A DNA stretch of 64,000 bases from positions 13,156 to 77,155 of the forward strand of contig CAYFPS010000011.1 of NCBI GenBank assembly GCA_964345075.1. Direction: 5' to 3'. Shown piece after piece: positions 1,317 to 56,629 of this stretch. Every line of letters starts with the position of its first letter. Within the stretch, counting starts at the first letter, position 1. Origin of the DNA: an uncultured Bacteroidaceae bacterium. Lineage in GTDB: Bacteria > CAIWAD01. The notes below the pieces were generated by a model, which was not told the DNA's origin, searched no databases, and worked only from the letters and a program-made list of their open reading frames with translations. The position numbers and the translations under genes are program-made.

Positions 1317-1325
1317 GAGGCGATC

Positions 1326-27551: not shown

Positions 27552-27608
27552 TTGACTCTTTGCCCCGCTCGCTGTTACTTGTTAGCACTCATGGCACGCG
27601 AGTGCTAA
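27552..27608 (+). promoter_or_regulatory. sigma70-like promoter plus CIRCE operator (HrcA site) upstream of groES
   Basis: TTGACT-N17-TTACTT, followed by TTAGCACTC-atggcacgc-GAGTGCTAA at 27582-27608. This is a perfect match to the CIRCE consensus TTAGCACTC-N9-GAGTGCTAA. Confidence 0.9.
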
Positions 27609-27663
27609 CAGCTCTTGAACAACACAGTTTTTCAATTCAATTCAATCCCAAAAGGAGGATTCC

Positions 27664-27951: not shown

Positions 27952-27965
27952 GGAGAAGGAGCTAA

Positions 27966-29606
<1,641 letters not shown>

Positions 29607-39405: not shown

Positions 39406-39469
39406 CCTGCCAGCCTGGTGAAAAGAAAAAGGGCGATGCTTCGCCCTTTTTGATTGATGTCAAAACGCT

Positions 39470-41728: not shown

Positions 41729-41751
41729 GCAAACTCCATGCTTGGGAGCTT

Positions 41752-41787
41752 CAAAGTAAAAGAAAAGGGTGACCCTTGGGCCACCCT
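41752..41787 (-). terminator. Intrinsic terminator after T9SS gene B
   Basis: Minus-strand hairpin aagggtggcc-caag-ggtcaccctt followed by ttcttttac. Confidence 0.55.
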
Positions 41788-41810
41788 TGATTGTCTAAAT
41801 CCAGCTGCTA

Positions 41811-44800
41811 CTACTTAAGCAGCACGGCCTTGCGCGTCGCCTGCCACTCGCCGCTTGACAGCGTGTATACATAGACGCCGCTGGGCAAGCTCGCTGCATT
41901 CCATGTGAAAGTATGGCTCCCCGGGCCGCGCAGCCCGAGATCTTCCTGCATCACACGCTCACCCTTCAGGTTGTAAATGCTGATTTCAGCCTTTGCCATT
42001 TCGGGCTGAATCCACTGCACGGTCGTGACCGGGTTGAAGGGATTGGGATAGTTCTGCCTGAGTTCGAAACTGAGCTCGCGCCCTTCCAGCAGGCCGCTGT
42101 TCATGTCGATCACCTGCATCACAAAGGGGTGACTTTCACCGTATCCGGCAAAGTCCGCCACCAGCCAGTAATCACCGGCAGGCAGACCCATGAACTCAAG
42201 CACTTCGCCTTCGGTGCCGGGGCCGTGATCGTTTGCGGCAGCACCACAGCTGATCGCGGGCGTCGCGCAGTTGCCAACCAGCAGAATCACTTCGTCGGCA
42301 TTGCCTTCGCCAGTCATGGCCACATGCAGGTCCATCGGTTCGGCCAGCACCACACGCAGCGTGTAATCCAGACCCGGGCTGGAAACATCACCCGGGCAGC
42401 CGGTGCCGCTGTGATGTGCGTACTCGGGCGCCGTGTCCGCGACCACCGTCCAGATGTCGTGGAAGTCGGGCACATCTTCGTAACCGTCACACATGTCCTG
42501 CGTGGGCAGGCTGCCGGAGACGGTCAGCGCATAGGCCTGCTCCTCGGGCACGCCGTTCATCTCGTTGTGGCCGATCACGATGAAGTAACTGCCAGCGGGC
42601 AGGGACTCAACCGAAATGCTTTCCGGGTGACAGGCCGGCGCGTCGTCCACCTCGTAAAGTACGCCGCCTTCAGGATTCATGTCCGTGATGAAGAGGGCTG
42701 CATCAAAGCCGTCAATTTCGCAGGAGACCACCAGCTCGGTCGCACTTTCCAGCTCCAGCAAGAACCAGTCCATGTCACGCTCGCCGGCATCGGCCCAGAC
42801 CGTACCACAAATGGTTTCGTCCAGAGCGATCACGCCATAGTTGCTGTTGGGCGGATCGGCGTTCCAGCCTTCGTTGGGTTCGGCTTCTGCCGTGCCACTG
42901 CAGTCGATGGGCTCGTGTCCGGCGCAGGGATCGCCCGAGCAGTTCAGCATCAGGGCATAACTCTGCGGGCCTTCCAGATCCGGATCACCGTCATGCTCCA
43001 CAACGATGTAATAGGAACCACTCTCCAGCTCGCTCAAGCTGAAGGCTTCGCCGAAGCAGCGCGGGAAGGTGTTGGCATCGGCCAGGATATCACCGCCCGG
43101 CGCACTTTCGCGCAGTGTGAGACGGGCATCAAAGTCGCTCACATCCACGATGACTTCGATGTTGCCGCCAAAGTGGGTGTAGAGGTACCAGTCGCTGTCG
43201 GTTGTGGTGCCGTCGCTTTCCAGTTCGCCACAGATCACATCGGCACAGCGAATGCTGTTGTAGCTACCGTCTTCCCAGCCCTGATTGGGCTCTACCTCGA
43301 CGATGCCCGTGCAATCAACCGGCTCACAGCTGGACTGGGGCAGATAGACCACCATCGTCTCGTCGGCCACGGAGCCGCCTTCACCCTGATAGCGATAACC
43401 CAGACCACCGGAAGCGTCTGCATTCTCGATACCGACATTGGCATTGGCCACATCGCTCTGATCCATTTCATCATAGGCAACTTCGATGATGCCGCTGGGA
43501 TAAAGGATGATCTCAAAGGTGAAGGGACCGCCCGAGCTGTAAGCCATGATGCCGTCGAACTGCACGATGAAGCGCTGCTCGTCTTCATCGTACTCGTAAT
43601 ACACGGTGCCGCCATTGTTCGGATTCAGGTCGTCCCAGAAGGGAGCGATCATGTTGTCCGGCGACCAGCCATCCCCATTGTAGAAGGGAATCGGGTTGGT
43701 GCTCCAGTAGCCTGTGTAACCCTGACCGAAGCTGATGTAACCGTTTGAAGCGATGTAGACTTCTGACTCGATGCCACCATACCAGGGGAAGTCGAAACCG
43801 ATATCGAAGGGACCATCGAAACTGTCGTCGCTCAAGGACGCAGCACTTCCACTGCCACTGATATCAACCCACTCGAAATCGGGACCAGTAGGATGATCGC
43901 TATTGACCCACGTGTAGCCATAGGCATCGGGGCCGCCGAAGCTGGGCGGACTGCCCCAGTAGCCGCTGTCCGTGTTGGAGGGATCCGACTCGCCCGCGTC
44001 GAAACTGGCGGTCACGTGATAATCATAGATGACATCCGCTTCCGAATCGTAGGAGCTGTCATCGGTGAAGTTCAGGCCCGTGGTCGTGGCAATCAATTCG
44101 CCATCACGGTAGACATTGTACTCGATGAAGACACGCTCATTCAGGTGGAAGATCTCGTTCACCCGGTTGACGGCTTCGTCCTTGCTCAAGCCGCGCTGCT
44201 GCAGCAGGTAAATGGCTTCTGTATCACAGGAGGGCGACACGCCGCCAAACCAGCGGGCCAACAGTCCGGGATTGACAGGTGGCATCCAGCTCAGGCCCGT
44301 ATACGACAGGAAGCCATCCGTTGCCACCAGCCCAACCGGCGGCCAGGTGTAACTGACAATGTTGAAGCTGTACGTCGGTGATACACGCGTGTTGGCGTTT
44401 TCCGAATTGTCCGTTGCCTCAACCCACCAGCTGATCATGCTGCCGGCATCCTGGTGGGGAATGTCCCCCTCGTATGTATCACCGCCAGCATTGTCCATGG
44501 CAACTTCCTGCGAAGCGCCACCGTTGATCTGATAAAACAGGCTGACCGAATCGATACCGGTCAGGTCGGTGATCTCGGCGGAAATGGTGTAATCGCCTTC
44601 CAGCTCGGTTTCCATGTCCACAGGCAGATCGTTCAGCACAATCATCGGAGGCTGGAAATCCCCTTCAAGGGCTTCCACACGAATGGCCAGTTCATCCACC
44701 AGCGCACCACCATCGCCATTGTAGTTGACCAGCAGGCCAATGGTGCCGTCACTGTTCTCGATACCAACCGTGGCAAAGGCCAGAGCGCCTTCTTCCAGGT

Positions 44801-47684
44801 CCAGATACTGGAAGTCCATGTCACCAGTGGGATGGAGGATGGCCTGGAAGGTCTGGTGCCAACCGTTGTTCTGATAAAGCGGAACTGCGTCCCACTGGAC
44901 AATGAAGCGATCATTATCGGTGTCGTGATACGAATAGACGCCACCTCCGGCTCCCAGATTGTAGTCATCCCACATCGGGTAAATGGAATCATTGGGCTCG
45001 AAGCCATCAGGGATCGATCCGTTGGTCCAGGCCAGACCATTGATGCCAAAGGTCATGTAGCCGTTGGACGAAACCGTGATAGTCGTGTAGGTCCAGTCGT
45101 AGAAGGGGAACTGCCAGGGCAGGTCGATGGTGACCATGTCGTCCAGGCTGAAGAGGCCCAGGTTGGTGCCCACATCGCTGATCTCAACCCAGTCGAAGGT
45201 CGGGCCTTCGGGGTCATGGCTGTTCGTCCAGGCATAGCCCATCTCATCCGGGCCACCGCTTGTCGGGCGGGCGCCACGCGATCCGGTGTCGCTATTGGAA
45301 AGATCCGACTCACCGGCATCAAACTGAGCCGTGACATGATAGCTGTACTCGACATTGGGGTCGGCCCCGCCGCCGGGCAGGTCGTAATAGATCGGATCGC
45401 TGGTCGTCCCGATCAGGACATCATCACGGTAGACATTGTAATTCAGGAAGGAGCGCTCACCGCCCTCTGCCAGCAGTTCCAGCCAGATGGCCTTGGCCTC
45501 TTCGCGGTCAAGCCCGTGCTCGCGGGTCAGGCGCAGCATGGCTTCATCAAAACTGTTGGGCATTTCCGTGCCGAACCAGCGGGCTGCCAGTAGCGGCTCG
45601 ACCGGGGCAAACCAGGTGATCAGGCAGTAATCCAGCAGGCCGTCGCTGGCGACAAGCCCAAAGGGCGGCCAGGTGTAGCTGACCACTTCAAAGGAATAGT
45701 TGGCTGTAACACGAAGGTTCTGGCGTTCGCTGGTATCCACCGCCTCGATGCGCCACACGATCAGGCTGCCCATTTCCTGATGGGGAATGCCTGCCTCGTA
45801 TGTATCACCGTCCGTGTTCGTCATGACGACTTCAAACTCTTCGCCATTGTTCACGCGGTAGAACAGGCTGGCGGAGCCTACACCGGTGTCATCGGTAATG
45901 GTGGCTTCCACCATGTGATCACCGGGCAGCTCGGCTTCAACGGTCTCGGGCAGATTGGTGAAGCTGACGATGGGGGCCAGGAAGTCGCCGTCCAGCTGAC
46001 CGAAGAGGATGGCCGTGCCGTCTGCCAGGATGCCGCCCTCGCCATTGTAGTTGTACTCGAGGCCTATTGTGCCGTCCATGTTCTCGATGCCCACGCTTGC
46101 GCCCAGCAGGTCACCTTCGTCCAGATCCTGATGAACAATGATGATCTGGCCGCTTTCATAGAGCTGCGCTTCAAAGGAGAAGGGCACGCTGCCACCAAAG
46201 GCCGGAACCTGTTCGAACTGCACAATGAAGGCGCCACTGCTTTCGTCAAGACCGTAATACACGCTGCCGCCGGAACTGGGGTTCATGTCGTCCCAGAACA
46301 TGGCGATCATGTCGTTGGGCGTGCTTGTGCTGGGCATGATTGTGTTACCCAGACTTCCACTTCCCACACCAAAAGAGATGAAACCGTTGGAGCCGATGTA
46401 GAGCTCGTCCCAGGTGTTCTCGTAGAAGGGGAAGGTAAAGCCGATATCGACCGGCCCGAAACTGCTGTCGTCGGAAAGCCCGGCGATTTCGCCGGTGGCA
46501 CTGATATCGATCCACTCGACTCCGGGGCCTTCGGGATCCAGACTGTTCATCCAGGCATAACCCATTTCGTCCGGTCCTCCGGCCGTCGGGCGACCGGGTG
46601 TGGGATCGATGCTGACTTCATAGTCACCAACCTGTGTCCCCTCGTCGCCGATCAGCAGGTGATAGCTTCCGGCGGCCAGATTGAGCTCGCGCATACGCGC
46701 GGCGCCGGGCATGATGCTGCAGTCGCTCCAGCCCTGTGAGGCCACCAGCATGCCACCGTCGCAGGGATCGCCATCAAAGAGGTAGAGATCCAGGGCGTAG
46801 CTGGTACCGGAGAAGCAGGCGTCAAAATCATAGAAGCCGTCTTCCTCAATGGTGACGATGTAGCCGTGATCAGCGCCATCACCGCCAACCACACTCACGC
46901 CATCCGCATTGTTGCCAATCAGGAGCGCGGGCGCTGTAACGGTGGCCTCCGGGGCGTACTCTTCACAGGGCGTGAGGCACTCATCATCGCTGAAGGTCAC
47001 GGTCAGGTCGTAGTTACCACTGTCGCCGCCATAGGCATCGATCACCAGATAGTAGGTGCCGGCCTGCAGGCAGCAGGGAGGCAGATCGGACGACCAGTTT
47101 GCACAGTCAGCGCCATCGTCATTGGCGGCAATCAGCACCATGTTTTCATCAAAGATGCCGATGCAGCTGTCATAGTCGGCCGTGTTACAAACACTGGCCG
47201 CAACCTCGTAGGAAGCCTCCAGCGTAAAGGTGTACCAGGCGTCGGGACCGTCGAAACTGCTTGTGGTATAGAAGCTGCTGTTGCATTCAGTCGGTGTGGC
47301 CTGACCAACCGGAACCGTGTCGCTGAAACCGACAGTCGTTCCCGTATCCGTAAAACTGCCGCCTGCGGCAAAGGTGATTTCCACCGCGTCTTCCGGTGTA
47401 TCACCGCCATCGCGCTGATTCTGCTGTGTTACACCGCGATTTGGAAATAGTCGATCCTTCAGCCATTCCGGCGCGGGCTGGCCGATCGACTTGTAATAGG
47501 CGTAGAGAGCCTGATCATCAACCGTCGCGGGAAGTCCCAGTTCAGCCTTGAGGCTGTTCAGTGATACACCGCCTGCATCGGCTTTTTGCTGCAGCTCGAC
47601 CTCGCTCAAAGCGAGCGCGCTGGATGCACCAAGCAGGAGACCGCCTGCGATCGCGGGCAGCCATCGAGAACTAACGTTGTACAT
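41811..47684 (-). CDS. T9SS cargo protein B (1957 aa): two N-terminal PPC-like modules, three [NIDO-like + Ig-like + Fn3-like] repeats, two PPC-like modules, Por_Secre_tail CTD
   Basis: Signal peptide MYNVSSRWLPAIAGGLLLGASSALA. Three repeats of ..RPT.GGPD.MGYAW.NS.DP.GP...W..IS..G ... SSNG[FY].[ST]FG ... [PM][FM]WDD.NP..GG.VYY ... RFIVQ[FW]. C-terminus NYPNPFNPVTTVQW...KAVLLK. Confidence 0.85.
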   Translation of the reverse strand: MYNVSSRWLPAIAGGLLLGASSALALSEVELQQKADAGGVSLNSLKAELGLPATVDDQALYAYYKSIGQPAPEWLKDRLFPNRGVTQQNQRDGGDTPEDAVEITFAAGGSFTDTGTTVGFSDTVPVGQATPTECNSSFYTTSSFDGPDAWYTFTLEASYEVAASVCNTADYDSCIGIFDENMVLIAANDDGADCANWSSDLPPCCLQAGTYYLVIDAYGGDSGNYDLTVTFSDDECLTPCEEYAPEATVTAPALLIGNNADGVSVVGGDGADHGYIVTIEEDGFYDFDACFSGTSYALDLYLFDGDPCDGGMLVASQGWSDCSIMPGAARMRELNLAAGSYHLLIGDEGTQVGDYEVSIDPTPGRPTAGGPDEMGYAWMNSLDPEGPGVEWIDISATGEIAGLSDDSSFGPVDIGFTFPFYENTWDELYIGSNGFISFGVGSGSLGNTIMPSTSTPNDMIAMFWDDMNPSSGGSVYYGLDESSGAFIVQFEQVPAFGGSVPFSFEAQLYESGQIIIVHQDLDEGDLLGASVGIENMDGTIGLEYNYNGEGGILADGTAILFGQLDGDFLAPIVSFTNLPETVEAELPGDHMVEATITDDTGVGSASLFYRVNNGEEFEVVMTNTDGDTYEAGIPHQEMGSLIVWRIEAVDTSERQNLRVTANYSFEVVSYTWPPFGLVASDGLLDYCLITWFAPVEPLLAARWFGTEMPNSFDEAMLRLTREHGLDREEAKAIWLELLAEGGERSFLNYNVYRDDVLIGTTSDPIYYDLPGGGADPNVEYSYHVTAQFDAGESDLSNSDTGSRGARPTSGGPDEMGYAWTNSHDPEGPTFDWVEISDVGTNLGLFSLDDMVTIDLPWQFPFYDWTYTTITVSSNGYMTFGINGLAWTNGSIPDGFEPNDSIYPMWDDYNLGAGGGVYSYHDTDNDRFIVQWDAVPLYQNNGWHQTFQAILHPTGDMDFQYLDLEEGALAFATVGIENSDGTIGLLVNYNGDGGALVDELAIRVEALEGDFQPPMIVLNDLPVDMETELEGDYTISAEITDLTGIDSVSLFYQINGGASQEVAMDNAGGDTYEGDIPHQDAGSMISWWVEATDNSENANTRVSPTYSFNIVSYTWPPVGLVATDGFLSYTGLSWMPPVNPGLLARWFGGVSPSCDTEAIYLLQQRGLSKDEAVNRVNEIFHLNERVFIEYNVYRDGELIATTTGLNFTDDSSYDSEADVIYDYHVTASFDAGESDPSNTDSGYWGSPPSFGGPDAYGYTWVNSDHPTGPDFEWVDISGSGSAASLSDDSFDGPFDIGFDFPWYGGIESEVYIASNGYISFGQGYTGYWSTNPIPFYNGDGWSPDNMIAPFWDDLNPNNGGTVYYEYDEDEQRFIVQFDGIMAYSSGGPFTFEIILYPSGIIEVAYDEMDQSDVANANVGIENADASGGLGYRYQGEGGSVADETMVVYLPQSSCEPVDCTGIVEVEPNQGWEDGSYNSIRCADVICGELESDGTTTDSDWYLYTHFGGNIEVIVDVSDFDARLTLRESAPGGDILADANTFPRCFGEAFSLSELESGSYYIVVEHDGDPDLEGPQSYALMLNCSGDPCAGHEPIDCSGTAEAEPNEGWNADPPNSNYGVIALDETICGTVWADAGERDMDWFLLELESATELVVSCEIDGFDAALFITDMNPEGGVLYEVDDAPACHPESISVESLPAGSYFIVIGHNEMNGVPEEQAYALTVSGSLPTQDMCDGYEDVPDFHDIWTVVADTAPEYAHHSGTGCPGDVSSPGLDYTLRVVLAEPMDLHVAMTGEGNADEVILLVGNCATPAISCGAAANDHGPGTEGEVLEFMGLPAGDYWLVADFAGYGESHPFVMQVIDMNSGLLEGRELSFELRQNYPNPFNPVTTVQWIQPEMAKAEISIYNLKGERVMQEDLGLRGPGSHTFTWNAASLPSGVYVYTLSSGEWQATRKAVLLK

Positions 47685-47787
47685 AGGGGCTCCTATTTAG
47701 CCTGAGGCCAGATTCTTGGCAGGTTCCGCTTGCAGCTTACAAAGTGGGGGGCGTTGATTCGAGGAAAAAACCACTATACAGCAGCTT

Positions 47788-47828
47788 TAACAATGAAAGG
47801 GGCGGCCCTCGTGAATGGACCGCCCCTT
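47788..47828 (-). terminator. Intrinsic terminator after T9SS gene C
   Basis: Minus-strand hairpin aaggggcggtcc-attcacga-gggccgcccctt followed by tcattgtt. Confidence 0.5.
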
Positions 47829-47854
47829 GCTTGAATGCGATTGCTTGGGCTGAA

Positions 47855-50800
47855 TTACTTCAGCAGCACGGCCTTCTTTGTATCAACGTGGGCTCCGACT
47901 TTCAGCGTGTAAATGTACACACCACTGGAAAGGCTACTGGCATCCCACATGTAGTTGTGTGTGCCGGCATTTCGCAGACCCAGATCCTGCTGCATGACCA
48001 TTTCACCCATCAGGTTGTAGATGGCAAGCTCGGCCTTTTCCATCTCCGGTTGCGTCCAGCTGATGGACGTGACCGGGTTGAAGGGGTTCGGGTGATTCTG
48101 CTTCAGCTGGAAGCTCAGCTCGCGACCTTCTGCCAGGCTGGAGTTCATGTCGATGATCTCCATCACGAAAGGATGGGCTTCACCGTAGCCGGCAAAGTCG
48201 GCCACCAACCAGTAGTCACCGGCGGGCAGACCAGCAAAGGTCAGGGTTTCGCTCTCGGTGCCGGCGCCAAAGTCATCGACGGCCGCACCGCAGCTGATGG
48301 CAGGCGTTTCGCAGTTGCCAACCAGCAGAATGACTTCGTCAGCATTGCCGGCGCCGGTCATGGTTACCTGCAGGTCGGTCGTCTGGGAGAGCACGATGCG
48401 AACCGTGTAGTCCAGACCCGGACTGGAAACATCACCCGGGCAACCGGTACCCGAATGGTGGGCATACTGCGGGGCCGTGTCGGCCACGACGGTCCAGATA
48501 TCGTGGAAGTCGGGCACATCTTCGTAGCCTTCGCACATGTCCTGCTCGGCCAGGTTGCCGGAAACGGTCAGTGAATAGGCCTGCTCTTCGGGCACACCGT
48601 AAAGGTCGTTGTGACCGATCACGATGAAGTAGCTGCCGGAGGGCAGGGCTTCGTAACTGAGGCTTTCCGGTGCGCAGGCCGGCGCGTCGTCCACTTCCAG
48701 CAGCACGCCACCGGCGGGATCCATTTCCGTGAGGAAGAGGGCAGCATCAAAGGCATCCACCTCGCAGCTGATGGTCAGGTTGATCGCACTTTCCAGCTCC
48801 AGCAGGAACCAGTCCATGTCGCGCTCGCCGTTCTCGGCCCAGACCGTACCACAAATGGTTTCGTCCAGAGCGATCACGCCGTAGCTGCTGTTGGGCGGAT
48901 CGGCGTTCCAGCCTTCGTTGGGTTCGGCTTCCGCCGTACCTTCACAGTCGATGGGATTGTGTCCGGCACAGGGATCGCCCGAGCAGGTCAGGCTGAGCGA
49001 GTAGCTCTGCGCGCCTTCCAGATCCGGATCACCCACATGCTCGACCACGATGAAGTAGGAACCACCTTCCAGCTCCGTGACGGCAAAGGCCTCGTCAAAA
49101 CAGCGCGGGAAGACATCGGCTTCGGCAATTGTATCACCGCCGTTTTCAAACTCCACCAGACTGATGCGGCCGTCAAAGTCGCTCAGGTCGAGGCTGACTT
49201 CAATGTTGCCACCGAAGTGCGTGTAAAGGAACCAGTCGCTGTCGGTTGTGGTGCCGTCGCTTTCAAGCTCGCCGCAGATCACATCATCGCAGCGGATCAC
49301 ATTCCAGGTGTTGTCGGCCCAGCCACCATTTGGCTCGGCCTCGGCAATGCCATCACACTCAACCGGCTCGCAGTTGGAGGGCGGTGTCATGATCATGGTG
49401 ACTTCATTGCTGATCGCGCCACCTTCACCGTTCACATTGTAAGCCAGACCAATCGAGGCATCGCTGTTCTCGATACCGACCGTTGCATTTTGCAGGTCGC
49501 CGGGATACATGTCTTCCCAGCTGATCTGGATGATGCCGCTCTGGTAAAGCACGGCCTGGAAGGTGTTGGTGTATTCCGGCATGGCCAGATGGGGAACATC
49601 CTGCCACTGAATCACGACGCAGCTCTGGGCTTCGATGTATTCGTAGTAGATGACGCCGCCAACGGAGGTGTAAAGGTCATCCCAGAAGGGCGCGATCAGA
49701 TCGTTGGGATCATCGGCCGTGGGAATCGGGTCGCTCGTGTAATCGGTGCCGTCACCACCGAAGGTCAGGTAACCGTTGGAACTGACCAGCGCGCTGCTGT
49801 AAAAGCTTCCATAGAAGGGGAAGTCGAAGGGCAGGTTGATCTGACCACTTGTGTCGTCGCCGACGATCGCCAGATCCTGACCGCTACCACTGATGTCGAT
49901 CCACTCGTATTCGGGACCGGCCACATCCAGGCTGCTCACCCAGATGTAACCGAAGGCATCGGGACCGCCACTGGTGGGACGGCTGCCACGGAATCCGCTG
50001 TCCGTATTGGAAGCATCAGATTCACCACTGTCGAATTCGGCGGTCACATGGTAGTCGTACTCGACATCCTGCTCGGCGCCATCACCGGGCATGTCATAGT
50101 AGAAGAGCTCGGTCGTCGTGGCAATGTCTTCACCATCACGATAAACATGATAGGTGATGAACTCGCGGCTGGAGCCGGCCTGCATGCTTTCCCAGACTTC
50201 CAGCGCCTCGGTCTTGCTCAGGCCGTGCTCGCGGACCAGACGATCCAGCGCTTCTGTCTCACCGGCCGGCATGTCGCCACCGAACCAGGCAAGCGCCATG
50301 GTCGGCTCCACCGGAGCCATCCAGGTGATCTGCGTGTAATCCAGCAGTCCGTCGGTCGCGTCCAGTCCGAAGGGCGGCCAGGTGTAGCTGACCACTTCAA
50401 AGCTGTAGCTTTCCGTGATACGCACATTGGCCAGATCGGAAGCATCAACGGCCTCCAGCCACCAGACCACCGTGTTACCGGCATCCTGATGGGGAATCGC
50501 ACCCGTGTAGTCGTCGCCGGCCGTGTTCGTCAGCGCAACTTCAACGGCCGCGCCGCCATTCAGCGTGTAATACAAATTGGCGCTGGTCAGACCACTCTCG
50601 TCGGTGATGGTGGCTTCCACCACATAGTCACCGGTCAGTTCGGTTTCGATGGTCGTGGAAGGCATGGCGTCCAGCGTGATCAGCGGGGCAATGAAGTCGC
50701 CTTCCAGCTGCGTGAAGAGCACGGCCGTACCGTCAATGATGCTGCCGCCATCCGTGTTACAATTGTAGGAAAGACCAATGGTCCCGTCGGCATTTTCGAT

Positions 50801-52807
50801 ACCGATGGTGGCACTGGTCAGGTCGCCCTGCATGTCTTCCAGCTGAATCAGGATACTGCCATCGGCATTCATGATGGCCTGGAAGGTGTTGGGCGGACTG
50901 CTGGGGCCGGGGTAATCGGGCACGCCCGTGAACTGCACAATGAAGCGATCGTTGGCCGTGTCTTCCAGATAGTGCACGCTTCCGACGCCATCGCCCGGAT
51001 CCAGATCGTCCCAGAACATGGAAATCATGGCATTGGGCGAACCGGCATCGGGCAGACAGACATTGCCCAGACTGGAACTGGCGGCCTGGAAGTTCAGGTG
51101 ACCGTTGGAGCTGATGTAGATCTCGCTGTAGACACCCTCATAGAAGGGGAAGTCGATGCCCATGGGGAAGGGGCCGAGGCCCTGATCGTCACCAAGAGAA
51201 ACGAGCACGGCAGCGGGATCGCCCGAAATGTCCACCCAGCTGTACTCGGGGCCATCGGGATCCTGATTATTGACCCAGGCATAACCCATTTCGTCCGGGC
51301 CGCCGCTGGTCGGGCGCTCGGGCGTGGACTGAATCATGACCTCGTAGTTGCCCACGGTGGTCCAGTCGTCACCGATCAAGAGGTGATAGCTGCCGGGCTC
51401 CAGGGAGCGTTCCATCAGGCGCGCAGCACCCCAGGGGGCCGTGCAGCTGGAGGAGTTGCTTTCATAAAGCAGGGTGCCACCGTCGCAGGGGTCGCCATCA
51501 AAGAGGGAAAGGGTCAGGCTGAAATCGCTGCCCGGCATGCAGGCATCGAAGTCGTAAAGACCCGCTTCGTCAATGGTGACCACATAGCCGACATCCGGTG
51601 CGGCGCCCCAGTAGATGTCCACGCCATCGCCCGTGTTGCCCACAAGGGTCGTGGGAACGGAAACCGTTTCCAGCGGCTCATAGGCATCACAGGGTGAATA
51701 GACATTGATCGTGAAGGCACCTTCGCCCGAACCGGGACTGGCCACACGCATGTGGTAGGTGCCGGCTTCCAGCGCCTGATTGCCCAGCAGGCCCGGGAAG
51801 GCCGCGCCCCCTTCGGTGCAGCTGACGCCGCCCGACTGGGCCAGAATCACGCCGCCATCGCAGGGCGAAGCATCCATCAGGTAGAGAATGACATCAACTT
51901 CGGTGCCAGCGTCGCAGGCATCAAAGGAGTAGATGCCGGAAGTGCCCAGGGTCAGCGTGAAACCGCTGTCGCCCCAGCCATTGCCGTCCACATCCGCCGC
52001 GTCAACCGTGCTGCCGCTGAAGCTGCCGGGAATGGTGGCCTCGGCCAGTTCATCGGCGTACTGATCGCAGGGTTCCTGGCAGATTGCGTCACTGAAGCTG
52101 ACCGTCAGGTCGTAATCACCCTCGGCCGTGCCGTAGGAATCCACCACCACATAGTAGGTGCCGGCCGGCAGGCAGCAGGGAGGCAACAGGGAGGTCCAAC
52201 CGGTGCAATCGGCGCCATCATCGTTGACGGCAACCAGGTTGAGGTTTTCGTCCAGAATGCCCAGACAGCTGTCGTAGGTGGCCGCGTCACAGACGGTGGC
52301 CGAGACTTCGTAGCTGTCATCCAGCGTAAAGGTGTACCAGGCATCCGGCCCGTTGAAGCTGGATGTGGAATAATAGCTGGTGTTACAAGCGGTGGGCGGA
52401 GGCGTACCTACCAGCAGCACATCGCTGAAGCCGACGGTCGTTCCCGAATCGGTCCAGTCGCTGCCCGCTGTAAAGATGATTTCCACAGCTTCTTCCGGCG
52501 AATCACCACCATCGCGCTGGATGCGATCGGTCGTGCCAGCCAGCGGAAAGAGGCGGCTGATCAGCCATGCCGGGGCTTCTTCACCCTGTTGCTTGTACCA
52601 GGCGTAAAGGTCTTGGTCAGCCAGATTCCGCTCCGCGCCGGAATCCAGCAGGTGGCCGTATTCGGCCTCAAGCTCAGCCATGCTCTGTCCGCTGGTCCGG
52701 GACTTCTGCTCAAGGTCCTCGATGGACAGAGCAAAGCCTGCTGGGCAAGCAATGAACAGAGCAATCCACCCGGTCAATACGGGCACCAATCGTCCGATGT
52801 GTGACAT
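47855..52807 (-). CDS. T9SS cargo protein C (about 1650 aa), paralog of B with the same module order
   Basis: Probable start MSHIGRLVPVLTGWIALFIACPAGFALS at 52807, which has the same GGAGCCCCTATG context as gene B. The track ORF up to 52894 adds 29 aa with no signal-peptide character. N-terminal 200 aa show strong paralogy to B. C-terminus NHPNPFNPVTSISW...KAVLLK. Confidence 0.85.
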   Translation of the reverse strand: MSHIGRLVPVLTGWIALFIACPAGFALSIEDLEQKSRTSGQSMAELEAEYGHLLDSGAERNLADQDLYAWYKQQGEEAPAWLISRLFPLAGTTDRIQRDGGDSPEEAVEIIFTAGSDWTDSGTTVGFSDVLLVGTPPPTACNTSYYSTSSFNGPDAWYTFTLDDSYEVSATVCDAATYDSCLGILDENLNLVAVNDDGADCTGWTSLLPPCCLPAGTYYVVVDSYGTAEGDYDLTVSFSDAICQEPCDQYADELAEATIPGSFSGSTVDAADVDGNGWGDSGFTLTLGTSGIYSFDACDAGTEVDVILYLMDASPCDGGVILAQSGGVSCTEGGAAFPGLLGNQALEAGTYHMRVASPGSGEGAFTINVYSPCDAYEPLETVSVPTTLVGNTGDGVDIYWGAAPDVGYVVTIDEAGLYDFDACMPGSDFSLTLSLFDGDPCDGGTLLYESNSSSCTAPWGAARLMERSLEPGSYHLLIGDDWTTVGNYEVMIQSTPERPTSGGPDEMGYAWVNNQDPDGPEYSWVDISGDPAAVLVSLGDDQGLGPFPMGIDFPFYEGVYSEIYISSNGHLNFQAASSSLGNVCLPDAGSPNAMISMFWDDLDPGDGVGSVHYLEDTANDRFIVQFTGVPDYPGPSSPPNTFQAIMNADGSILIQLEDMQGDLTSATIGIENADGTIGLSYNCNTDGGSIIDGTAVLFTQLEGDFIAPLITLDAMPSTTIETELTGDYVVEATITDESGLTSANLYYTLNGGAAVEVALTNTAGDDYTGAIPHQDAGNTVVWWLEAVDASDLANVRITESYSFEVVSYTWPPFGLDATDGLLDYTQITWMAPVEPTMALAWFGGDMPAGETEALDRLVREHGLSKTEALEVWESMQAGSSREFITYHVYRDGEDIATTTELFYYDMPGDGAEQDVEYDYHVTAEFDSGESDASNTDSGFRGSRPTSGGPDAFGYIWVSSLDVAGPEYEWIDISGSGQDLAIVGDDTSGQINLPFDFPFYGSFYSSALVSSNGYLTFGGDGTDYTSDPIPTADDPNDLIAPFWDDLYTSVGGVIYYEYIEAQSCVVIQWQDVPHLAMPEYTNTFQAVLYQSGIIQISWEDMYPGDLQNATVGIENSDASIGLAYNVNGEGGAISNEVTMIMTPPSNCEPVECDGIAEAEPNGGWADNTWNVIRCDDVICGELESDGTTTDSDWFLYTHFGGNIEVSLDLSDFDGRISLVEFENGGDTIAEADVFPRCFDEAFAVTELEGGSYFIVVEHVGDPDLEGAQSYSLSLTCSGDPCAGHNPIDCEGTAEAEPNEGWNADPPNSSYGVIALDETICGTVWAENGERDMDWFLLELESAINLTISCEVDAFDAALFLTEMDPAGGVLLEVDDAPACAPESLSYEALPSGSYFIVIGHNDLYGVPEEQAYSLTVSGNLAEQDMCEGYEDVPDFHDIWTVVADTAPQYAHHSGTGCPGDVSSPGLDYTVRIVLSQTTDLQVTMTGAGNADEVILLVGNCETPAISCGAAVDDFGAGTESETLTFAGLPAGDYWLVADFAGYGEAHPFVMEIIDMNSSLAEGRELSFQLKQNHPNPFNPVTSISWTQPEMEKAELAIYNLMGEMVMQQDLGLRNAGTHNYMWDASSLSSGVYIYTLKVGAHVDTKKAVLLK

Positions 52808-52911
52808 AGGGGCTCCCAAATCCTTGAGCCAGTGTGATGTTAAAGGCAGGTTCCGAAGGGCTAGAGTAGCAAATCCCAAGCTGGAATCATGCATTTGGGA
52901 CCTTGTGCAAT

Positions 52912-52939
52912 AAAAAAGGGTCCCGCCTGCGCGGGACCC
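52912..52939 (-). terminator. Intrinsic terminator after T9SS gene D
   Basis: gggtcccgc-gcag-gcgggaccc hairpin followed by TTTTTT on the minus strand, directly after the gene D stop. Confidence 0.8.
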
Positions 52940-52961
52940 TGTTGCTTCTGATAAAGCTGGA

Positions 52962-55900
52962 TTACTTCAGAAGGACGGCCTTCTTGGTATCCGTGAAGTC
53001 GCCAACGGTCAGCGTGTAGATGTACACACCGCTGGAAAGGCTGCTGGCATCCCAGACAAAGCTGTGGCTACCGGCGGCGCGGCTACCGAGCTCGACGCTC
53101 TGAACCTTTTCACCCATGATGTTGAAGACCGTCAGGTTGGCCTGGGCCAGCTCGGGCTGGTTCCAGCTGATGGTCGTCGTCGGGTTGAAGGGGTTCGGGT
53201 AGTTCTGCTCGAGGCTGAAGCTGGCCACGATGGTCGGGTCAACATCGATGTCATAACCGAAGCAGAAGTTCAGGTCATAGGCATCGCTGCCCCAACCGGC
53301 ACCGCTGTCCAGCAGGCTGGTCATGTCGGCACCCGTCGAGCTGCTGCCCCAGAGGAACCAGCAGCTGGCGTCGCCGGCACCCTGAACACCGATCCAGCCT
53401 TCGGCCATTTCCAGCGGAGCGGGCAGGTCGAAGGTGAAGGTCATGCTCTCGTAAACACCGGCGTAGAGGTTGCCCGTCGGGACACCACTCAGGCTGACGT
53501 CGAAGGACTCAACCTCGTTGCCCGGCAGGTTGCCGGCTTCGTAGAAGGTGATGTAGAAGGGCGTGGGATCTTCGGTACAGGCATTCCAGGCGGCACCGTC
53601 GTTGAAGAGGGCCAGACCGTCAAAGCTGACGCTCGTGATGGCCTGCGGCACGTTGCCAAAGGCTTCTGCGCGGTTGTAGAAAGTACCGGCGCCGTCGGTG
53701 TCAAATTCGGAAACGCCGAAGCTCCAGCTGTCATCCACACCGGCAACCGTCTGGCAGTCAACATACTCGATCGTGCCACCGCAGGTGGTCTCAAGCGTGA
53801 AGGTGTAGTCACCACCGGTCCAGGCGTAGCAGTCAACCACCACATAGTAGGTGCCGGCGTCGTAGCTGCCCGTGATCGATTCGTCGGAACCGACGGCCCA
53901 GGGCATGTCAAGGCAATCCAGCGGATCGCAGCTGCCGAGCAGAACCAGATCAAGGTCTTCTGCATCCGGGGAGCTCATCGTGATGGTCATCAGACCGCCA
54001 GCGTGCTCGAGCTCGTACCAGACTTCCGGTCCGTCTTCACCGCCGAAGCAGTAGTCTTCGTACATGTTGCCAACCTGGCTGTCGGCGTTGGAACCCATCA
54101 TGAGGCCATTGCACTCGAGGGTGATGGTGGCATCGCAGGGATCGGTGAATTCACAGGGAACACAGTCCACGAAGAGGCTGTAGGCCTGCTCGTCAACAAC
54201 ACCTTCAAAGCCGTTGTGACCCATCCACACGTAGTAGATACCGGCGGGCAGGCACTGGCTCATGGCCTCGCCATCATAGCTCTCGGGCTCGCAGAAGCCG
54301 GCGTTGTTGACGGTGGCGATGATGTTGTAAGCGTCGTCCATGATGAAGACCAGACCGTCGAACATTTCGACATCGGCGCTGATCGTCATGTAGGTGTCAC
54401 CCAGCGTGAAGACCTCGAACCAGTCGGCATCACGGAAGCCACCATCGGCCCAGACGGTACCGCAGGTGGTCGTGCCGCATTCGATCGTGCCGAAGGTGTC
54501 GTCGCCACCAAAGTCCACCGGACCATTGTTGGGCTCGCCTTCGTCCAGGCCGTCGCACTCGATGGGCTCGCAGCTGCCACAGGAGATGTTCAGGCTGAAG
54601 TTACCTTCGCTAGAACTGTAACCATCGACAACCAGCCAGTAGGTACCGGCATCCAGGGCCATCACAATCTGGCTCTGCAGGCCGCAGCTGTCGTCGTTGG
54701 AGGCGATCATGGTGCCGCCACTGACCGGGCAACCATCCCACAGGGTCAGGTAGCTGTCGTAGTCCGTGCCGCCGTCGCAAAGGTCGAAGGTCACAGGGGC
54801 GGTGGCATCGACGTCAATCTGGAAGAAGAAGTCGCCGGAAGCATTGTTCACGTAATTGAACATGCCGACGGTGCTACCCGCGTAGCTGTCACCGCAGCCA
54901 AGCACAACGGGATCCACGCAGGGATCGTCGATGTTGCAGGCTTCGGCCACGACAGTCAGGCCATAGTTGGCAGGAATGTCAACACCCGTGAAGCCATTGG
55001 GGCCAACCCACACATAGTAGGTGCCGGCAAAGAGGCAGGCGGAGACAATCTGCTCGTCACCACAGATACCGGCGTTGTCAGCCGTGTAGAGGATGGTGGC
55101 GGCGTCGCTGTCGATGATGAACATCAGAGCGTTGAATTCTTCCACGGCGAGGTCGGCGGTAATGATCGAGTTCTCGGTCACGACCAGCTCGAACCAGTCC
55201 GTGTCGCGGGAATCGAAGCCCGTCTCGTCATCGAAGTAGGTGTAAACCGTACCGCAGACGGTTTCGCCACTGGTGATGGAACCGAAGGTGCCGTCGCCAT
55301 TGGGGCCGTCATTGGGCTCGACTTCAGCCGTGCCGTCGCAGTTGATGGGATCGCAGCTGTTGCAGGTCACGTTCAGGCTGAAGTTACCTTCGCTGGCACT
55401 GTAACCGTCCACAACCAGCCAGTAGGTGCCGGCGGTCAGGGTGGCGTCAATCTGGCTCTGCAGGCCGCAGCTGTCGTCGTTGTTGGCGATCATCGTGCCG
55501 CCGTCGGTTGGGCAGGCATCCCACAGGGTCAGGTAGCTGTCATAGTCCGTGCCGCCGTCGCAAAGGTCGAAGGTCACGGGGCCGTCGGAGGCCAGATCAA
55601 TCTGGAAGAAGAAGTCGCCAGCAGCGTTGTTGACATAGTTGAACATGCCAACCGTGCTGCCCACATAGTTGTCACCACAGCTGAGGACAACCGGATCGAT
55701 GCAGGGATCGTCACCGGCCTGGCCTTCTTCTGCGGTAAAGGCTACGTTGCCACCTTCGCCGTAGTAGTCCGTGATGGCGATGATGTAGTCAACGCCCGTC
55801 TCGAAGACGAAATCGCCCTGCGTCAGGTAGGTGGCCCAGGCTGCGACGGCGCAGCCACTGTCGCCGTCACGATAGAAGAGCTCAACCATCGTGTCACAGG

Positions 55901-56354
55901 CGTCGAAGATGTACAGGTCGGTGTCACAGTCGGTGCCATCAACACAGGTGTCGATGTTCAGGCCAACGCCCGTACCCGTCCAGGCAAAGTACTGGAAACC
56001 GCCAGCGGGAATCGCCCAGGTGGTTCCCGCTGAAGCGAGAATGTCTTCGGCAGAAGCACAGTCTTCGTTACGGTTCTCGAGGCTGGGCGTGACGCGGTTG
56101 GCCGTGCGGAGGTGGGCTTCCACCTTGGCCAGCTGTTCGGCACTCAGTTCGCCCGTGCTACCGAGATTGCCCCTCAGGGCTTCGTTCTCAACCACATCCT
56201 TGACAACGAGCTCGGCCGAGTTGCCGAAAGGAACGTTCTCGAGGTTCTGGTTGCTGTTTGCCTTGCTGCTCGTGGAAGCCGCGGAAATGCCCAGCGAAGC
56301 ATAGGCGCTACCCGCGACGGCCAGGACGAGACCAGCCGTAAGCAATTTCTTCAT
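52962..56354 (-). CDS. T9SS cargo protein D (1130 aa) built of repeated PPC-like Cys-containing modules with Por_Secre_tail CTD
   Basis: Signal peptide MKKLLTAGLVLAVAGSAYA. Repeats of ..EPN.GP...G....CGTV......D.DWFE..... and DLCDGGTDYDSYLTLWD.CP..GGTMIA.NDDSCGLQSQI (two near-identical copies). C-terminus NYPNPFNPTTTISW...KAVLLK. Confidence 0.85.
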   Translation of the reverse strand: MKKLLTAGLVLAVAGSAYASLGISAASTSSKANSNQNLENVPFGNSAELVVKDVVENEALRGNLGSTGELSAEQLAKVEAHLRTANRVTPSLENRNEDCASAEDILASAGTTWAIPAGGFQYFAWTGTGVGLNIDTCVDGTDCDTDLYIFDACDTMVELFYRDGDSGCAVAAWATYLTQGDFVFETGVDYIIAITDYYGEGGNVAFTAEEGQAGDDPCIDPVVLSCGDNYVGSTVGMFNYVNNAAGDFFFQIDLASDGPVTFDLCDGGTDYDSYLTLWDACPTDGGTMIANNDDSCGLQSQIDATLTAGTYWLVVDGYSASEGNFSLNVTCNSCDPINCDGTAEVEPNDGPNGDGTFGSITSGETVCGTVYTYFDDETGFDSRDTDWFELVVTENSIITADLAVEEFNALMFIIDSDAATILYTADNAGICGDEQIVSACLFAGTYYVWVGPNGFTGVDIPANYGLTVVAEACNIDDPCVDPVVLGCGDSYAGSTVGMFNYVNNASGDFFFQIDVDATAPVTFDLCDGGTDYDSYLTLWDGCPVSGGTMIASNDDSCGLQSQIVMALDAGTYWLVVDGYSSSEGNFSLNISCGSCEPIECDGLDEGEPNNGPVDFGGDDTFGTIECGTTTCGTVWADGGFRDADWFEVFTLGDTYMTISADVEMFDGLVFIMDDAYNIIATVNNAGFCEPESYDGEAMSQCLPAGIYYVWMGHNGFEGVVDEQAYSLFVDCVPCEFTDPCDATITLECNGLMMGSNADSQVGNMYEDYCFGGEDGPEVWYELEHAGGLMTITMSSPDAEDLDLVLLGSCDPLDCLDMPWAVGSDESITGSYDAGTYYVVVDCYAWTGGDYTFTLETTCGGTIEYVDCQTVAGVDDSWSFGVSEFDTDGAGTFYNRAEAFGNVPQAITSVSFDGLALFNDGAAWNACTEDPTPFYITFYEAGNLPGNEVESFDVSLSGVPTGNLYAGVYESMTFTFDLPAPLEMAEGWIGVQGAGDASCWFLWGSSSTGADMTSLLDSGAGWGSDAYDLNFCFGYDIDVDPTIVASFSLEQNYPNPFNPTTTISWNQPELAQANLTVFNIMGEKVQSVELGSRAAGSHSFVWDASSLSSGVYIYTLTVGDFTDTKKAVLLK

Positions 56355-56540
56355 ACAATTCTCCCTTGCTGTGGTCGGAGCGATCGCCCGTACCGCGACC
56401 CTGCGGTAGCCGGACAGGCAGCTGCGCCCAGAGAGCGACAGCCAAGCCCTTCGGCATGGGTTCCAAGCACCGACTGTTCCTGAAATGATGAGTGATGGTT
56501 TGCCAATTCGTGTCTATACCTGTTGAAAGGACACCTGCTC

Positions 56541-56580
56541 ATTATAGAAAGACAGGGGGAGACTTCACAACGACAAAGCT
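56541..56580 (-). promoter_or_regulatory. sigma70-like promoter of T9SS gene D with a ~180-nt 5' UTR
   Basis: Minus strand TTGTGA-N18-TATAAT. ATG at 56354 preceded by AAGGGAGA. Confidence 0.5.
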
Positions 56581-56629
56581 GCAGCAAGAAAAAAAAGTAG
56601 CGTACAGTTCTACCTGCTGGCGTGCAGTT

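What the first reader, a model, noticed from the sequence alone, without database searches (positions are those of the whole stretch)
47685..52961. Conserved upstream element (ECF-like GGAAC box) and identical RBS/start context shared by giant genes B and C; each gene has its own terminator
Upstream of both B (minus strand, + coordinates 47718-47728) and C (52845-52855) lies CGGAACCTGCC. It is followed 10-13 nt later by CTGGC(C)TCA(A)GG, and then by the identical GGAGCCCCT-ATG translation start context. The GGAAC-type box at this distance suggests an ECF sigma factor or a shared regulator. Intrinsic terminator hairpins follow D, C and B, so the four genes are separate transcription units despite the tandem layout. 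Gene A instead shares an ACTTTG.AAGCT.C.AAGC motif with the region upstream of B.
Basis: seen in the sequence. Interest (0 to 1): 0.55.

Follow-up and report, generated by a model that had tools for sequence, protein, structure and literature searches.

The report
Shared upstream boxes of two paralogous genes
Two neighbouring giant secreted-protein genes of an uncultured Delongbacteria-like bacterium share three short conserved blocks just before their start codons; the blocks are real and probably regulatory, but they fit a transcribed leader behind an older family promoter better than an ECF sigma-factor promoter, and the case is fairly ordinary.

Summary
CGGAACCTGCC (box 1), CTGGCYYMAGG (box 2) and GGAGCCCCTATG occur only upstream of genes B and C in the window. 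A shared 11-mer arises in 21 of 5000 shuffles. The surrounding spacers and signal-peptide codons are randomised. An orthologue from another metagenome (L004) keeps all three blocks. One detail is wrong: box 2 lies 6 nt (B) and 12 nt (C) after box 1, not 10-13.

The ECF reading is weak but not excluded. Read as a sigmaE-like promoter, the spacers are 15, 16 and 20 nt. The motif is absent from genes A and D and from about 150 kb of related DNA. The window has no ECF sigma or anti-sigma gene.

A deeper-conserved promoter-like motif lies just upstream: cTTTyCyC-TCGCTY-N17-TAnnnT. It precedes 7 family genes in 4 genomes, 47-57 nt before the ATG in six of them. It puts box 1 at about +1 of the mRNA, and box 2 stays 5-7 nt before the Shine-Dalgarno sequence.

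Best reading (0.45): a clade-specific leader or start-site element inherited with the 5' gene module. RNA-structure tests were negative or inconsistent. Terminators after D, C and B are confirmed. This is an ordinary lineage-specific element of modest interest.

The parts
39470..41728 (-). Gene A, 752 aa. T9SS type-A CTD cargo protein.
   Evidence: Por_Secre_tail / TIGR04183 hits.
41740..41757 (-). Block upstream of A, ACTTTGAAGCTCCCAAGC. It is shared with the -10/start-site region of B.
   Evidence: Sequence. It differs from B's block by one indel and two substitutions.
41765..41788 (-). Intrinsic-terminator-like hairpin plus T-tract after gene B.
   Evidence: 10 pairs, 6 of them GC, tail TTCTTTTACT.
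41811..47684 (-). Gene B, 1957 aa. T9SS cargo with NIDO, CBM_56, PPC and CTD domains.
   Evidence: Paralogue of C.
47682..47693 (-). B translation start: SD GGAG, spacer CCCCT, ATG.
47701..47711 (-). B box 2, CTGGCCTCAGG. It lies 7 nt before the SD.
   Evidence: Conserved in C and L004.
47718..47728 (-). B box 1, CGGAACCTGCC (the 'GGAAC box'). It starts 5 nt after the -10-like hexamer, so at about +1 of the predicted transcript.
47734..47739 (-). B -10-like hexamer TAAGCT of the family promoter motif M1.
   Evidence: The block GTAAGCTGYAAG is conserved in L004.
47757..47770 (-). B T-tract plus -35-position element, TTTTTTCC-TCGAAT, of motif M1. It lies 17 nt from the -10-like hexamer.
47797..47828 (-). 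Intrinsic-terminator-like hairpin after gene C.
   Evidence: 12 pairs, 9 of them GC.
47855..52807 (-). Gene C, 1650 aa counted from the ATG at 52807. T9SS cargo.
   Evidence: A signal peptide follows the ATG at 52807, which has SD GGAG 5 nt upstream.
52805..52816 (-). C translation start: GGAG, CCCCT, ATG.
52822..52832 (-). C box 2, CTGGCTCAAGG. It lies 5 nt before the SD.
52845..52855 (-). C box 1, CGGAACCTGCC. It starts 7 nt after the TACTCT hexamer.
52863..52873 (-). C extended -10-like TTTGCTACTCT. C has no TCGCTY element at the -35 position.
   Evidence: Resembles L001 TTGGTACTCT.
52917..52940 (-). Intrinsic-terminator-like hairpin after gene D.
   Evidence: 10 pairs, 8 of them GC, tail TTTTTTATTGC.
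52962..56354 (-). Gene D, 1130 aa. T9SS cargo. It has no boxes.
56541..56570 (-). Sigma70-like promoter candidate of D, TTGTGA-N18-TATAAT. It implies a leader of about 180 nt.

Best explanation
B, C and the orthologue P0001 (locus L004) carry a homologous 5' regulatory module. It was inherited together with the N-terminal module of this mosaic family of giant T9SS cargo genes.

Proposed layout, 5' to 3':
- The family promoter-like motif M1: a T/C-rich tract, TCGCTY at the -35 position, exactly 17 nt, then TAnnnT, often preceded by TG. M1 is intact in B and L004. C keeps only the TG-TACTCT part.
- The predicted transcription start.
- Box 1, (C)GGAA(A)CCTGCC, at about +1 to +12.
- A spacer of free length and sequence (6, 7 or 12 nt).
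- Box 2, CTGGCyyMAG, 5-7 nt before the SD.
- GGAG-CCCC(T)-ATG.

The three blocks are held by purifying selection and are cis-regulatory. Most likely they act at the transcription start and inside the transcribed leader. I propose that box 1 is the recognition site of a clade-specific trans-acting factor, either a repressor or activator at +1 or an RNA-binding factor at the 5' end. I propose that box 2 plus the SD context is the translation-initiation region. On this reading they are not the -35 and -10 of an ECF promoter.

Shown: the blocks, their conservation, their geometry, and the M1 motif.
Inferred: the transcription start, the RNA- or DNA-level action, and the existence of a trans factor.
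For: 1. The blocks are islands of identity. Box 1 matches 11/11, box 2 about 9/11, and SD-ATG 12/12. The flanking spacers differ in sequence and length, and the first 90 coding nt are 38% identical. A shared 11-mer appears in 21 of 5000 shuffles.
2. L004, from another sample, has an N-terminal domain only 55-61% identical. It keeps tGGAAACCTGCC, CTGGCTTCAG and GGAGCCCC-ATG.
3. The M1 regex TCG[CA][TA][TC]-N16-18-TAnnnT hits 13 times in 315 kb of both strands. Seven hits, all with N17, lie upstream of B/C-family genes in 4 genomes. Six of these end 47-57 nt before the ATG. The expectation is 0.008 hits per 200-nt upstream window.
4. Box 1 begins 5 nt (B), 7 nt (C) and 8-9 nt (L004) after the -10-like hexamer. 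Box 2 ends 7, 5 and 5 nt before the SD. The box 1 to box 2 gap is 6, 12 and 7 nt. The blocks are therefore anchored to the promoter and to the SD respectively, not to each other. This fits independent leader elements better than a rigid two-box DNA site.
5. Family members that lack box 1 (three genes in L002, and L001) still have M1 and leaders of the same length, so M1 is the ancestral promoter.
6. The groES promoter in the window, TTGACT-N17-TTACTT plus a CIRCE element, shows the organism uses ordinary sigma70-type geometry.
Against: - There are only three instances, all descended from one ancestral module, so conservation could overstate function.
- C lacks the TCGCTY part of M1, so its upstream promoter is uncertain.
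- No transcription-start data exist.
- No trans factor was identified.
- RNA folding gives no support for a structured leader: z-scores are +0.06 to +1.36, and there is no Rfam match.
- Three blocks laid out as -35 / -10 / SD is also exactly what a short-leader promoter would leave behind, which is the ECF rival.
- A near-identical C-like gene (L173) works with a completely different upstream region, so the module is dispensable for the protein.
Confidence: 0.45

Rival explanations
1. ECF (sigmaE-like) promoter. Box 1 would be the -35 (GGAACCT) and box 2 the -10 (TGGC.TCAnG). Transcription would start 5-6 nt later, right at the SD, giving a leader of about 10 nt. It could act as a second, stress-inducible promoter downstream of M1.
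For: - The GGAAC / GAAAC core with AAC is the ECF -35 hallmark.
- E. coli sigmaE motifs are GGAACTT and (T/C)GGTCAAAA (PMC1312014). Box 2 of C, TGGCTCAAG, resembles the second one.
- The spacers are 15 nt (B) and 16 nt (L004) by the same definition (sequences).
- The pattern of conserved block, free spacer, conserved block, short gap, SD is typical of a promoter plus RBS.
Against: - The spacer in C is 20 nt, outside the 15-19 range of E. coli sigmaE, where 16 is strongly preferred. ECF sigmas are described as stringent on spacer length. Yet C keeps both boxes perfectly.
- There is no canonical CGT or GTC in the -10.
- There is no A/T-rich UP region upstream of box 1.
- The motif is absent upstream of A and D and of all other T9SS genes and intergenic regions in about 150 kb of related DNA.
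- The window has no ECF sigma or anti-sigma gene.
- The SD would sit 1-3 nt from the 5' end of the mRNA.
Confidence: 0.25
2. Leader RNA switch. Box 2 (GGCyyC...AGG) pairs either with the SD (GGAGCC), occluding it, or with the 3' half of box 1 (CCUGCC), freeing it. This would tune translation of the giant proteins.
For: - RNAalifold consensus of the three leaders gives a 6-bp box 2:SD helix at -6.45 kcal/mol.
- The CCUGCC / GGC-nnn-AGG helix can form in B (-5.5), C (-4.7) and L004 (-1.0 kcal/mol). Its variable positions fall in the bulge and the loop.
- Variable spacer length is harmless for an RNA loop.
Against: - There is no covariation: 0 compensatory pairs and 2 broken cells.
- The leaders fold no better than shuffles, with z-scores of +0.06 to +1.36.
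- SD accessibility against shuffled leaders is inconsistent. B is more open than most shuffles (369/400 at or below the observed value), C is average (190/400), and only L004 is occluded (14/400).
- The model does not explain why the unpaired CGGAA is conserved.
Confidence: 0.1
3. No present function. The blocks are leftovers of the duplication, or of patchy gene conversion, that created B and C.
For: - The family is mosaic and undergoes concerted evolution. The C-terminal 500 aa are 76% identical for B-C and 73% for P0001-P0003, against 66-69% between genomes.
- The C-like gene in L173 has a wholly different 5' region.
- The orthologue in L001 has lost box 1.
Against: - Neutral decay or conversion tracts would not leave three 11-12-nt perfect islands separated by unalignable spacers of different length, next to signal-peptide codons at 38% identity.
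- The islands also survive in L004, in a different genome.
Confidence: 0.12
4. One DNA-binding regulator contacts box 1 and box 2 together. An example would be an OmpR/PhoB-type response regulator on the direct repeats CTGCC...CTGGC. The alternative of a sigma54 promoter in box 2 belongs here too.
For: - The CTGCC and CTGGC half-sites are 11 bp apart in B and 12 bp in L004.
- The window encodes a sigma54 activator at 16292-18334.
- Related loci L174 and L175 have TGGCAT-N5-TTGC promoters before T9SS cargo genes.
Against: - The half-site distance in C is 17 bp.
- Box 2 lacks the -12 GC in all three copies, and a sigma54 start would fall inside the ORF.
- TGGC-N7-TTGC has no match upstream of A-D.
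Confidence: 0.05

Closest known systems
E. coli sigmaE (RpoE) and other ECF sigma promoters (GGAACTT-N16-TCAAA)
   Same: GGAAC/AAC core in box 1, a TGG..TCA(A/G) string in box 2, and two short conserved blocks separated by an unconserved spacer.
   Different: The spacers are 15, 16 and 20 nt rather than a tight 16-17. There is no GTC/CGT. No regulon-wide recurrence and no nearby ECF or anti-sigma gene was found. The leader would be only about 10 nt. The conserved part of box 1 extends 5-6 nt beyond GGAAC.
Extended -10 sigma70-type promoters with an upstream activator or UP-like tract
   Same: Motif M1 has TAnnnT, often preceded by TG, a fixed 17-nt spacer and a T-rich tract, and it sits 47-57 nt before the ATG.
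   Different: The -35 position reads TCGCTY, not TTGACA. The groES promoter in the same window does read TTGACT. M1 may therefore need an activator or another sigma. This is untested.
PorXY-SigP control of T9SS genes in Porphyromonas gingivalis
   Same: A T9SS-related regulon controlled by an ECF sigma and a response regulator (PMC4800418, PMC8265659).
   Different: That system acts on por machinery genes. The published PorX sites are AT-rich and unrelated to the boxes here. The genes here are cargo genes in a different phylum.
SD-occluding leader hairpins (translational attenuators, RNA thermometers)
   Same: Box 2 is complementary to GGAGCC, and a consensus helix is predicted.
   Different: There is no covariation. 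Stability and SD occlusion are not above shuffled controls.
Phylogenetic footprints in upstream regions of paralogous surface-protein gene families
   Same: Short conserved islands are inherited with a duplicated 5' module in a recombining, tandemly arrayed gene family.
   Different: This is generic. It does not by itself name the mechanism.

Membership tests
ECF sigma-dependent promoter | -35 element with a GGAAC / AAC core | tested here: met
   CGGAAC in B and C, TGGAAAC in L004.
ECF sigma-dependent promoter | -10 element at a near-fixed spacer (about 16-17 nt, +/-1) | tested here: not met
   TCAGG, TCAGA and TCAAG lie at 15, 16 and 20 nt by the GGAACTT/TCAAA convention (sequences). The reference range is 15-19 with 16 strongly preferred. 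ECF sigmas are stringent on spacer length.
ECF sigma-dependent promoter | Motif recurs across a regulon and usually before the sigma gene itself | tested here: inconclusive
   An nhmmer profile finds no other copy in the window plus related loci, about 150 kb. The motif is absent at A and D. The whole genome was not available. The GTDB-representative scan returned only chance hits in unrelated phyla.
ECF sigma-dependent promoter | Cognate ECF sigma / anti-sigma encoded nearby | tested here: not met
   Pfam scans of about 40 window proteins found no Sigma70_r2/r4 or anti-sigma domain.
ECF sigma-dependent promoter | Transcription start 5-7 nt downstream of the -10 | not testable with these tools
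   Needs 5' RACE, dRNA-seq or a metatranscriptome.
Sigma54 promoter | GG at -24 and GC at -12 (TGGCAC-N5-TTGCW), with the start upstream of the RBS | tested here: not met
   Box 2 has TGGC but no -12 TTGC in any copy. There is no TGGC-N7-TTGC match upstream of A-D. The start would fall at or after the ATG.
Sigma70-type promoter (motif M1) | -10 TAnnnT with a 17 +/-1 nt spacer to a -35 element | tested here: inconclusive
   TAnnnT and N17 are met in 7 family genes. The -35 position reads TCGCTY, not TTGACA. C lacks it.
Intrinsic (Rho-independent) terminator | GC-rich hairpin followed by a T-tract directly after the stop codon | tested here: met
   Sites after D, C and B. Function was not tested.
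Known cis-regulatory RNA family (Rfam) | Match to a curated covariance model | tested here: not met
   0 matches with E-value up to 1 in 39000-57000.
SD-sequestering leader / RNA thermometer | Conserved helix occluding the SD, supported by covariation or by stability above background | tested here: not met
   A consensus helix is predicted but has 0 compensatory pairs. z-scores are at or above 0. SD occlusion is inconsistent.
T9SS type-A CTD cargo protein (genes A-D) | C-terminal Por_Secre_tail / TIGR04183 domain plus an N-terminal signal peptide | tested here: met
   All four exceed the curated cut-offs. Signal-peptide-like N-termini are seen.

The most novel reading that the evidence does not exclude
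The three blocks form a small leader RNA switch of a new kind. Box 2 would alternate between pairing with the SD (off) and with the 3' half of box 1 (on), with the conserved 5' CGGAA serving as the handle for a trans factor. Such a switch would set translation of giant T9SS adhesin-like proteins in an uncultured phylum. A less exotic reading that is also not excluded: the blocks are a bona fide ECF promoter, which would make T9SS cargo genes direct ECF targets outside Bacteroidota (probability about 0.25).
Probability: 0.1. Interest if true: 0.5.

Novelty: new member of a known kind. Interest (0 to 1): 0.25.

Why it matters
Nothing is known about gene regulation in Delongbacteria, or about how T9SS cargo genes are controlled outside Bacteroidota.

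A verified shared element would mark co-regulated giant surface proteins. It would also give a handle, in box 1, for finding their regulator.

The more broadly conserved M1 motif may be the more useful product of this work. It predicts the promoters, and leaders of about 50 nt, for this gene family in at least four genomes.

As it stands, this is a lineage-restricted cis element with three known copies and no demonstrated mechanism. The practical importance is modest.

Tried and rejected
- **Pattern scan of 185,579 representative genomes** for AACCTGCC-N4-14-CTGGC-N6-18-GGAGCCCC. It returned 88 hits, all in unrelated phyla and consistent with chance. The window's own genome is not in that set.
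- **Metagenome scan with the N-terminal protein alignment.** No close B/C relatives were found. Only D-like 5' ends turned up (L093, L094).
- **Two further protein searches** returned only P0027 and P0030. P0027 (L173) has a swapped 5' region without the boxes.
- **nhmmer profile of the three leaders.** No additional copy was found in about 150 kb.
- **RNA structure.** Single-sequence folds are no better than shuffles. The alifold helix has no covariation. SD occlusion is inconsistent. Rfam gives nothing.
- **Sigma54 reading of box 2.** Rejected on sequence and geometry.
- **Coding or leader-peptide explanation.** Rejected. The boxes fall in different frames relative to the ATG in B and C, and B has an in-frame TAA at -15.
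- **Antisense or sRNA partner in the window.** No complementary copy of box 1 with 1 mismatch or fewer outside the two sites, apart from one copy in a coding region.
- **Look-ups to extend the genome.** B and the neighbouring glycosyltransferase are not on record. Gene A is found only on a 4.1-kb contig of the same organism.
- **Possible degenerate box-1-like strings.** These occur in D's leader (TGGAACCCATGCC) and in L002 (CCCGAACCCCTGAC). The profile search did not support them, and I treat them as chance.
- **Literature search** for a known T9SS-cargo promoter motif. Nothing relevant was found.
Full report
**Setting.** The window has 59% G+C. Its best protein matches are named Candidatus Delongbacteria. 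Four tandem minus-strand genes all carry an N-terminal signal peptide and a T9SS type-A C-terminal sorting domain above the curated cut-offs:
- A, 39470-41728
- B, 41811-47684
- C, 47855-52807
- D, 52962-56354

B and C are paralogues. They are 60% identical over the C-terminal 1163 aa and 56% over residues 30-300. The ORF table starts C at an in-frame ATG at 52894. The ATG at 52807 has a GGAG 5 nt upstream and is followed directly by the signal peptide, so it is the real start.

**Check of the observation.**
- CGGAACCTGCC (box 1) is at 47718-47728 and 52845-52855 on the minus strand. These are the only exact copies in the window.
- GGAGCCCCTATG occurs exactly twice, at the two start codons.
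- Box 2 is CTGGCCTCAGG (47701-47711) and CTGGCTCAAGG (52822-52832). Without gaps it reads CTGGCYYMAGG.
Box 2 begins 6 nt (B) and 12 nt (C) after box 1, not 10-13 nt. GGAAC begins at -43 and -47 from the ATG.
- Terminator-like hairpins with T-tracts follow D, C and B.
- The block shared by A and B is present.
- The similarity is not chance. A shared 11-mer appears in 21 of 5000 dinucleotide shuffles of the two 111-nt regions. The spacers are unalignable, and the first 90 coding nt are only 38% identical.

**Related sequences.** Homologues were retrieved from other assemblies.
- L004 comes from Logan SRR31146644 and encodes protein P0001. It is B-like, and its N-terminal domain is 55% identical to B and 61% to C. 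It keeps all three blocks: tTGGAAACCTGCC-caatcaa-CTGGCTTCAG-aaatga-GGAGCCCC-ATG.
- L001 encodes P0003, which is C-like overall but has an N-terminal module only about 43% identical. It keeps only CTTCAAAACC and ACACTGG remnants.
- More distant family members, three genes in L002 and two in L003, have no boxes.
- L173 carries a C-like gene whose N-terminal 281 aa are 87% identical to C. Its signal peptide is unrelated and its intergenic space is 15 nt, with no boxes.
- The boxes therefore travel with one type of 5' module in a mosaic family. The family also shows concerted evolution at its 3' ends: within-genome identity is 73-76% against 66-69% between genomes.
- An nhmmer profile of the three leaders finds no further copy in the window plus related loci.
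- A composite-pattern scan of the GTDB representative genomes gave only chance hits in unrelated phyla.
- A metagenome scan found no further close relative.

**A deeper-conserved promoter-like motif.** I call it M1. The string cTTTyCyC-TCGCTY-N17-TAnnnT, usually with TG before the hexamer, lies just upstream of box 1 in B and L004. It also lies upstream of L001, the three L002 genes and L003:16654.
- The regex matches 13 times in 315 kb of both strands. Seven of these, all with a 17-nt spacer, are in front of family genes. Six end 47-57 nt before the ATG. The expectation is 0.008 per 200-nt upstream window.
- In B the elements are at 47757-47770 (T-tract plus TCGAAT) and 47734-47739 (TAAGCT).
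- C keeps TTTGCTACTCT (52863-52873) but not TCGCTY.
- The window's groES promoter is a textbook TTGACT-N17-TTACTT followed by a CIRCE element. RNA polymerase geometry in this organism is therefore conventional. The TCGCTY tract is probably an activator site or the target of another sigma.
- If M1 is used, transcription starts about 7 nt after the hexamer. That is at about 47727 (B) and about 52856 (C), which are the first bases of box 1.

**Geometry.**
- Box 1 starts 5, 7 and 8-9 nt after the -10-like hexamer in B, C and L004.
- Box 2 ends 7, 5 and 5 nt before the SD.
- The gap between the boxes is 6, 12 and 7 nt.
- The free spacer sits between a promoter-anchored block and an SD-anchored block. 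This fits independent elements of a transcribed leader, or an operator at +1 plus a translation-initiation region. It fits poorly with any rigid two-site DNA ligand.

**The ECF reading.** I applied the E. coli sigmaE conventions: -35 GGAACTT, -10 (T/C)GGTCAAAA, spacer 15-19 with 16 strongly preferred, discriminator 5-6.
- The boxes read GGAACCT-N15-TCAGG (B), GAAACCT-N16-TCAGA (L004) and GGAACCT-N20-TCAAG (C).
- The resemblance is real, and for B and L004 the geometry is acceptable. The start would fall at the SD, giving a leader of about 10 nt.
- Against it, C is out of range while keeping both boxes perfectly, and ECF sigmas are stringent on spacer length.
- There is no GTC or CGT.
- The motif is absent from A and D and from every other T9SS gene examined.
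- None of about 40 window proteins is an ECF sigma or anti-sigma.
- I rate this rival at 0.25, possibly as a second promoter inside the M1 leader.

**RNA-level tests.**
- Rfam gives nothing.
- The leaders fold no better than shuffles, with z-scores of +0.06 to +1.36.
- RNAalifold proposes a 6-bp helix between box 2 and GGAGCC at -6.45 kcal/mol. It has no compensatory change and two broken cells.
- An alternative CCUGCC/GGC-nnn-AGG helix can form, at -5.5, -4.7 and -1.0 kcal/mol.
- SD accessibility against shuffled leaders is inconsistent. B is open, C is average, and only L004 is occluded.
- A structural switch is therefore possible but unsupported.

**Other readings rejected.**
- A sigma54 promoter in box 2 fails. 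There is no -12 GC, the start would fall inside the ORF, and there is no TGGC-N7-TTGC match upstream of A-D.
- Related loci L174 and L175 do show TGGCAT-N5-TTGC before T9SS cargo genes.
- The published PorX sites of P. gingivalis are AT-rich and unrelated to the boxes.

**Verdict.**
- The blocks are best read as a clade-specific cis-regulatory module inherited with the 5' end of a recombining gene family. It lies at the start of, and within, a leader of about 50 nt transcribed from an older family promoter (confidence 0.45).
- An ECF-type promoter remains a serious rival (0.25).
- Non-functional remnants (0.12) and an RNA switch (0.10) are less likely.
- Separate transcription units for D, C and B are supported by the terminators and by promoter-like elements.
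- A's own promoter is doubtful. Only 82 nt separate it from B, most of that is terminator, and A shares only B's -10/start block.
- The finding is a new instance of a familiar kind of feature and is of modest interest. Mapping of transcript 5' ends would settle it.

Noticed in passing
window 47734-47770 (-); L001:141, L002:4327/9424/14542, L003:16470, L004:2299: A promoter-like motif, cTTTyCyC-TCGCTY-N17-(TGn)TAnnnT, is conserved upstream of 7 B/C-family T9SS genes in 4 Delongbacteria genomes. In six of them it lies 47-57 nt before the ATG. The -35 position is not TTGACA-like, so it may be an activator site or the target of another sigma.
   Followed up: partly
L173:1-1539 (JGI Ga0615128_044242): A C-like gene, 87% aa identical to C, has an unrelated signal peptide and only 15 nt of intergenic space after the preceding T9SS gene. 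The 5' module has been swapped by recombination. There is also an in-frame TAG at L173:985, which is either a pseudogene or a sequencing error.
   Followed up: partly
window genes B and C; L004 and L001: The C-terminal 500 aa are more alike within a genome (B-C 76%, P0001-P0003 73%) than between genomes (66-69%). The N-terminal modules group differently. This indicates concerted evolution or gene conversion in a mosaic family.
   Followed up: partly
window 27553-27610 (+): Canonical TTGACT-N17-TTACTT promoter followed by a CIRCE inverted repeat (TTAGCACTC-N9-GAGTGCTAA), upstream of groES-groEL (27665-29606).
   Followed up: no
L174:~1086 and ~2695; L175:~10445: Sigma54-type TGGCAT-N5-TTGC promoters lie about 100 nt upstream of T9SS cargo genes in more distant relatives. 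No such sites occur upstream of A-D in the window.
   Followed up: partly
window 56352-56367 and 56541-56570 (-); L093, L094, L176: D-like genes share a conserved RBS context (CAAGGGAGA..ATGAAGA) and a far-upstream sigma70-like promoter, which implies a leader of about 180 nt. In relatives the promoter region reads TTGGACAAC...CAAGTCCTAACTT.
   Followed up: no
window 18404-18477 (+): Six units of a 12-nt periodic repeat (TGGTCCGACnnn) form nested palindromes. They lie in the intergenic region just after the sigma54-activator gene (16292-18334) and before a 155-aa ORF with no Pfam hit.
   Followed up: no
window 56630-59918 (-): A cluster of GT4 glycosyltransferase, PIG-L deacetylase and BshC-like genes. 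It looks like a bacillithiol (bshA/bshB/bshC) biosynthesis cluster directly upstream of gene D.
   Followed up: no
window 47728-47745 and 47718-47728 (-): In B (and in L004) the -10/start block AAGCTGCAAG and box 1 AACCTGCCAAG look like an imperfect direct repeat. A carries one copy (AAGCTCCCAAG). The significance is unknown.
   Followed up: no
window 30-2249 (+): Flagellar hook-associated genes (flgK-like and flgL/flagellin-like) are present, so this T9SS-bearing organism is probably flagellated.
   Followed up: no
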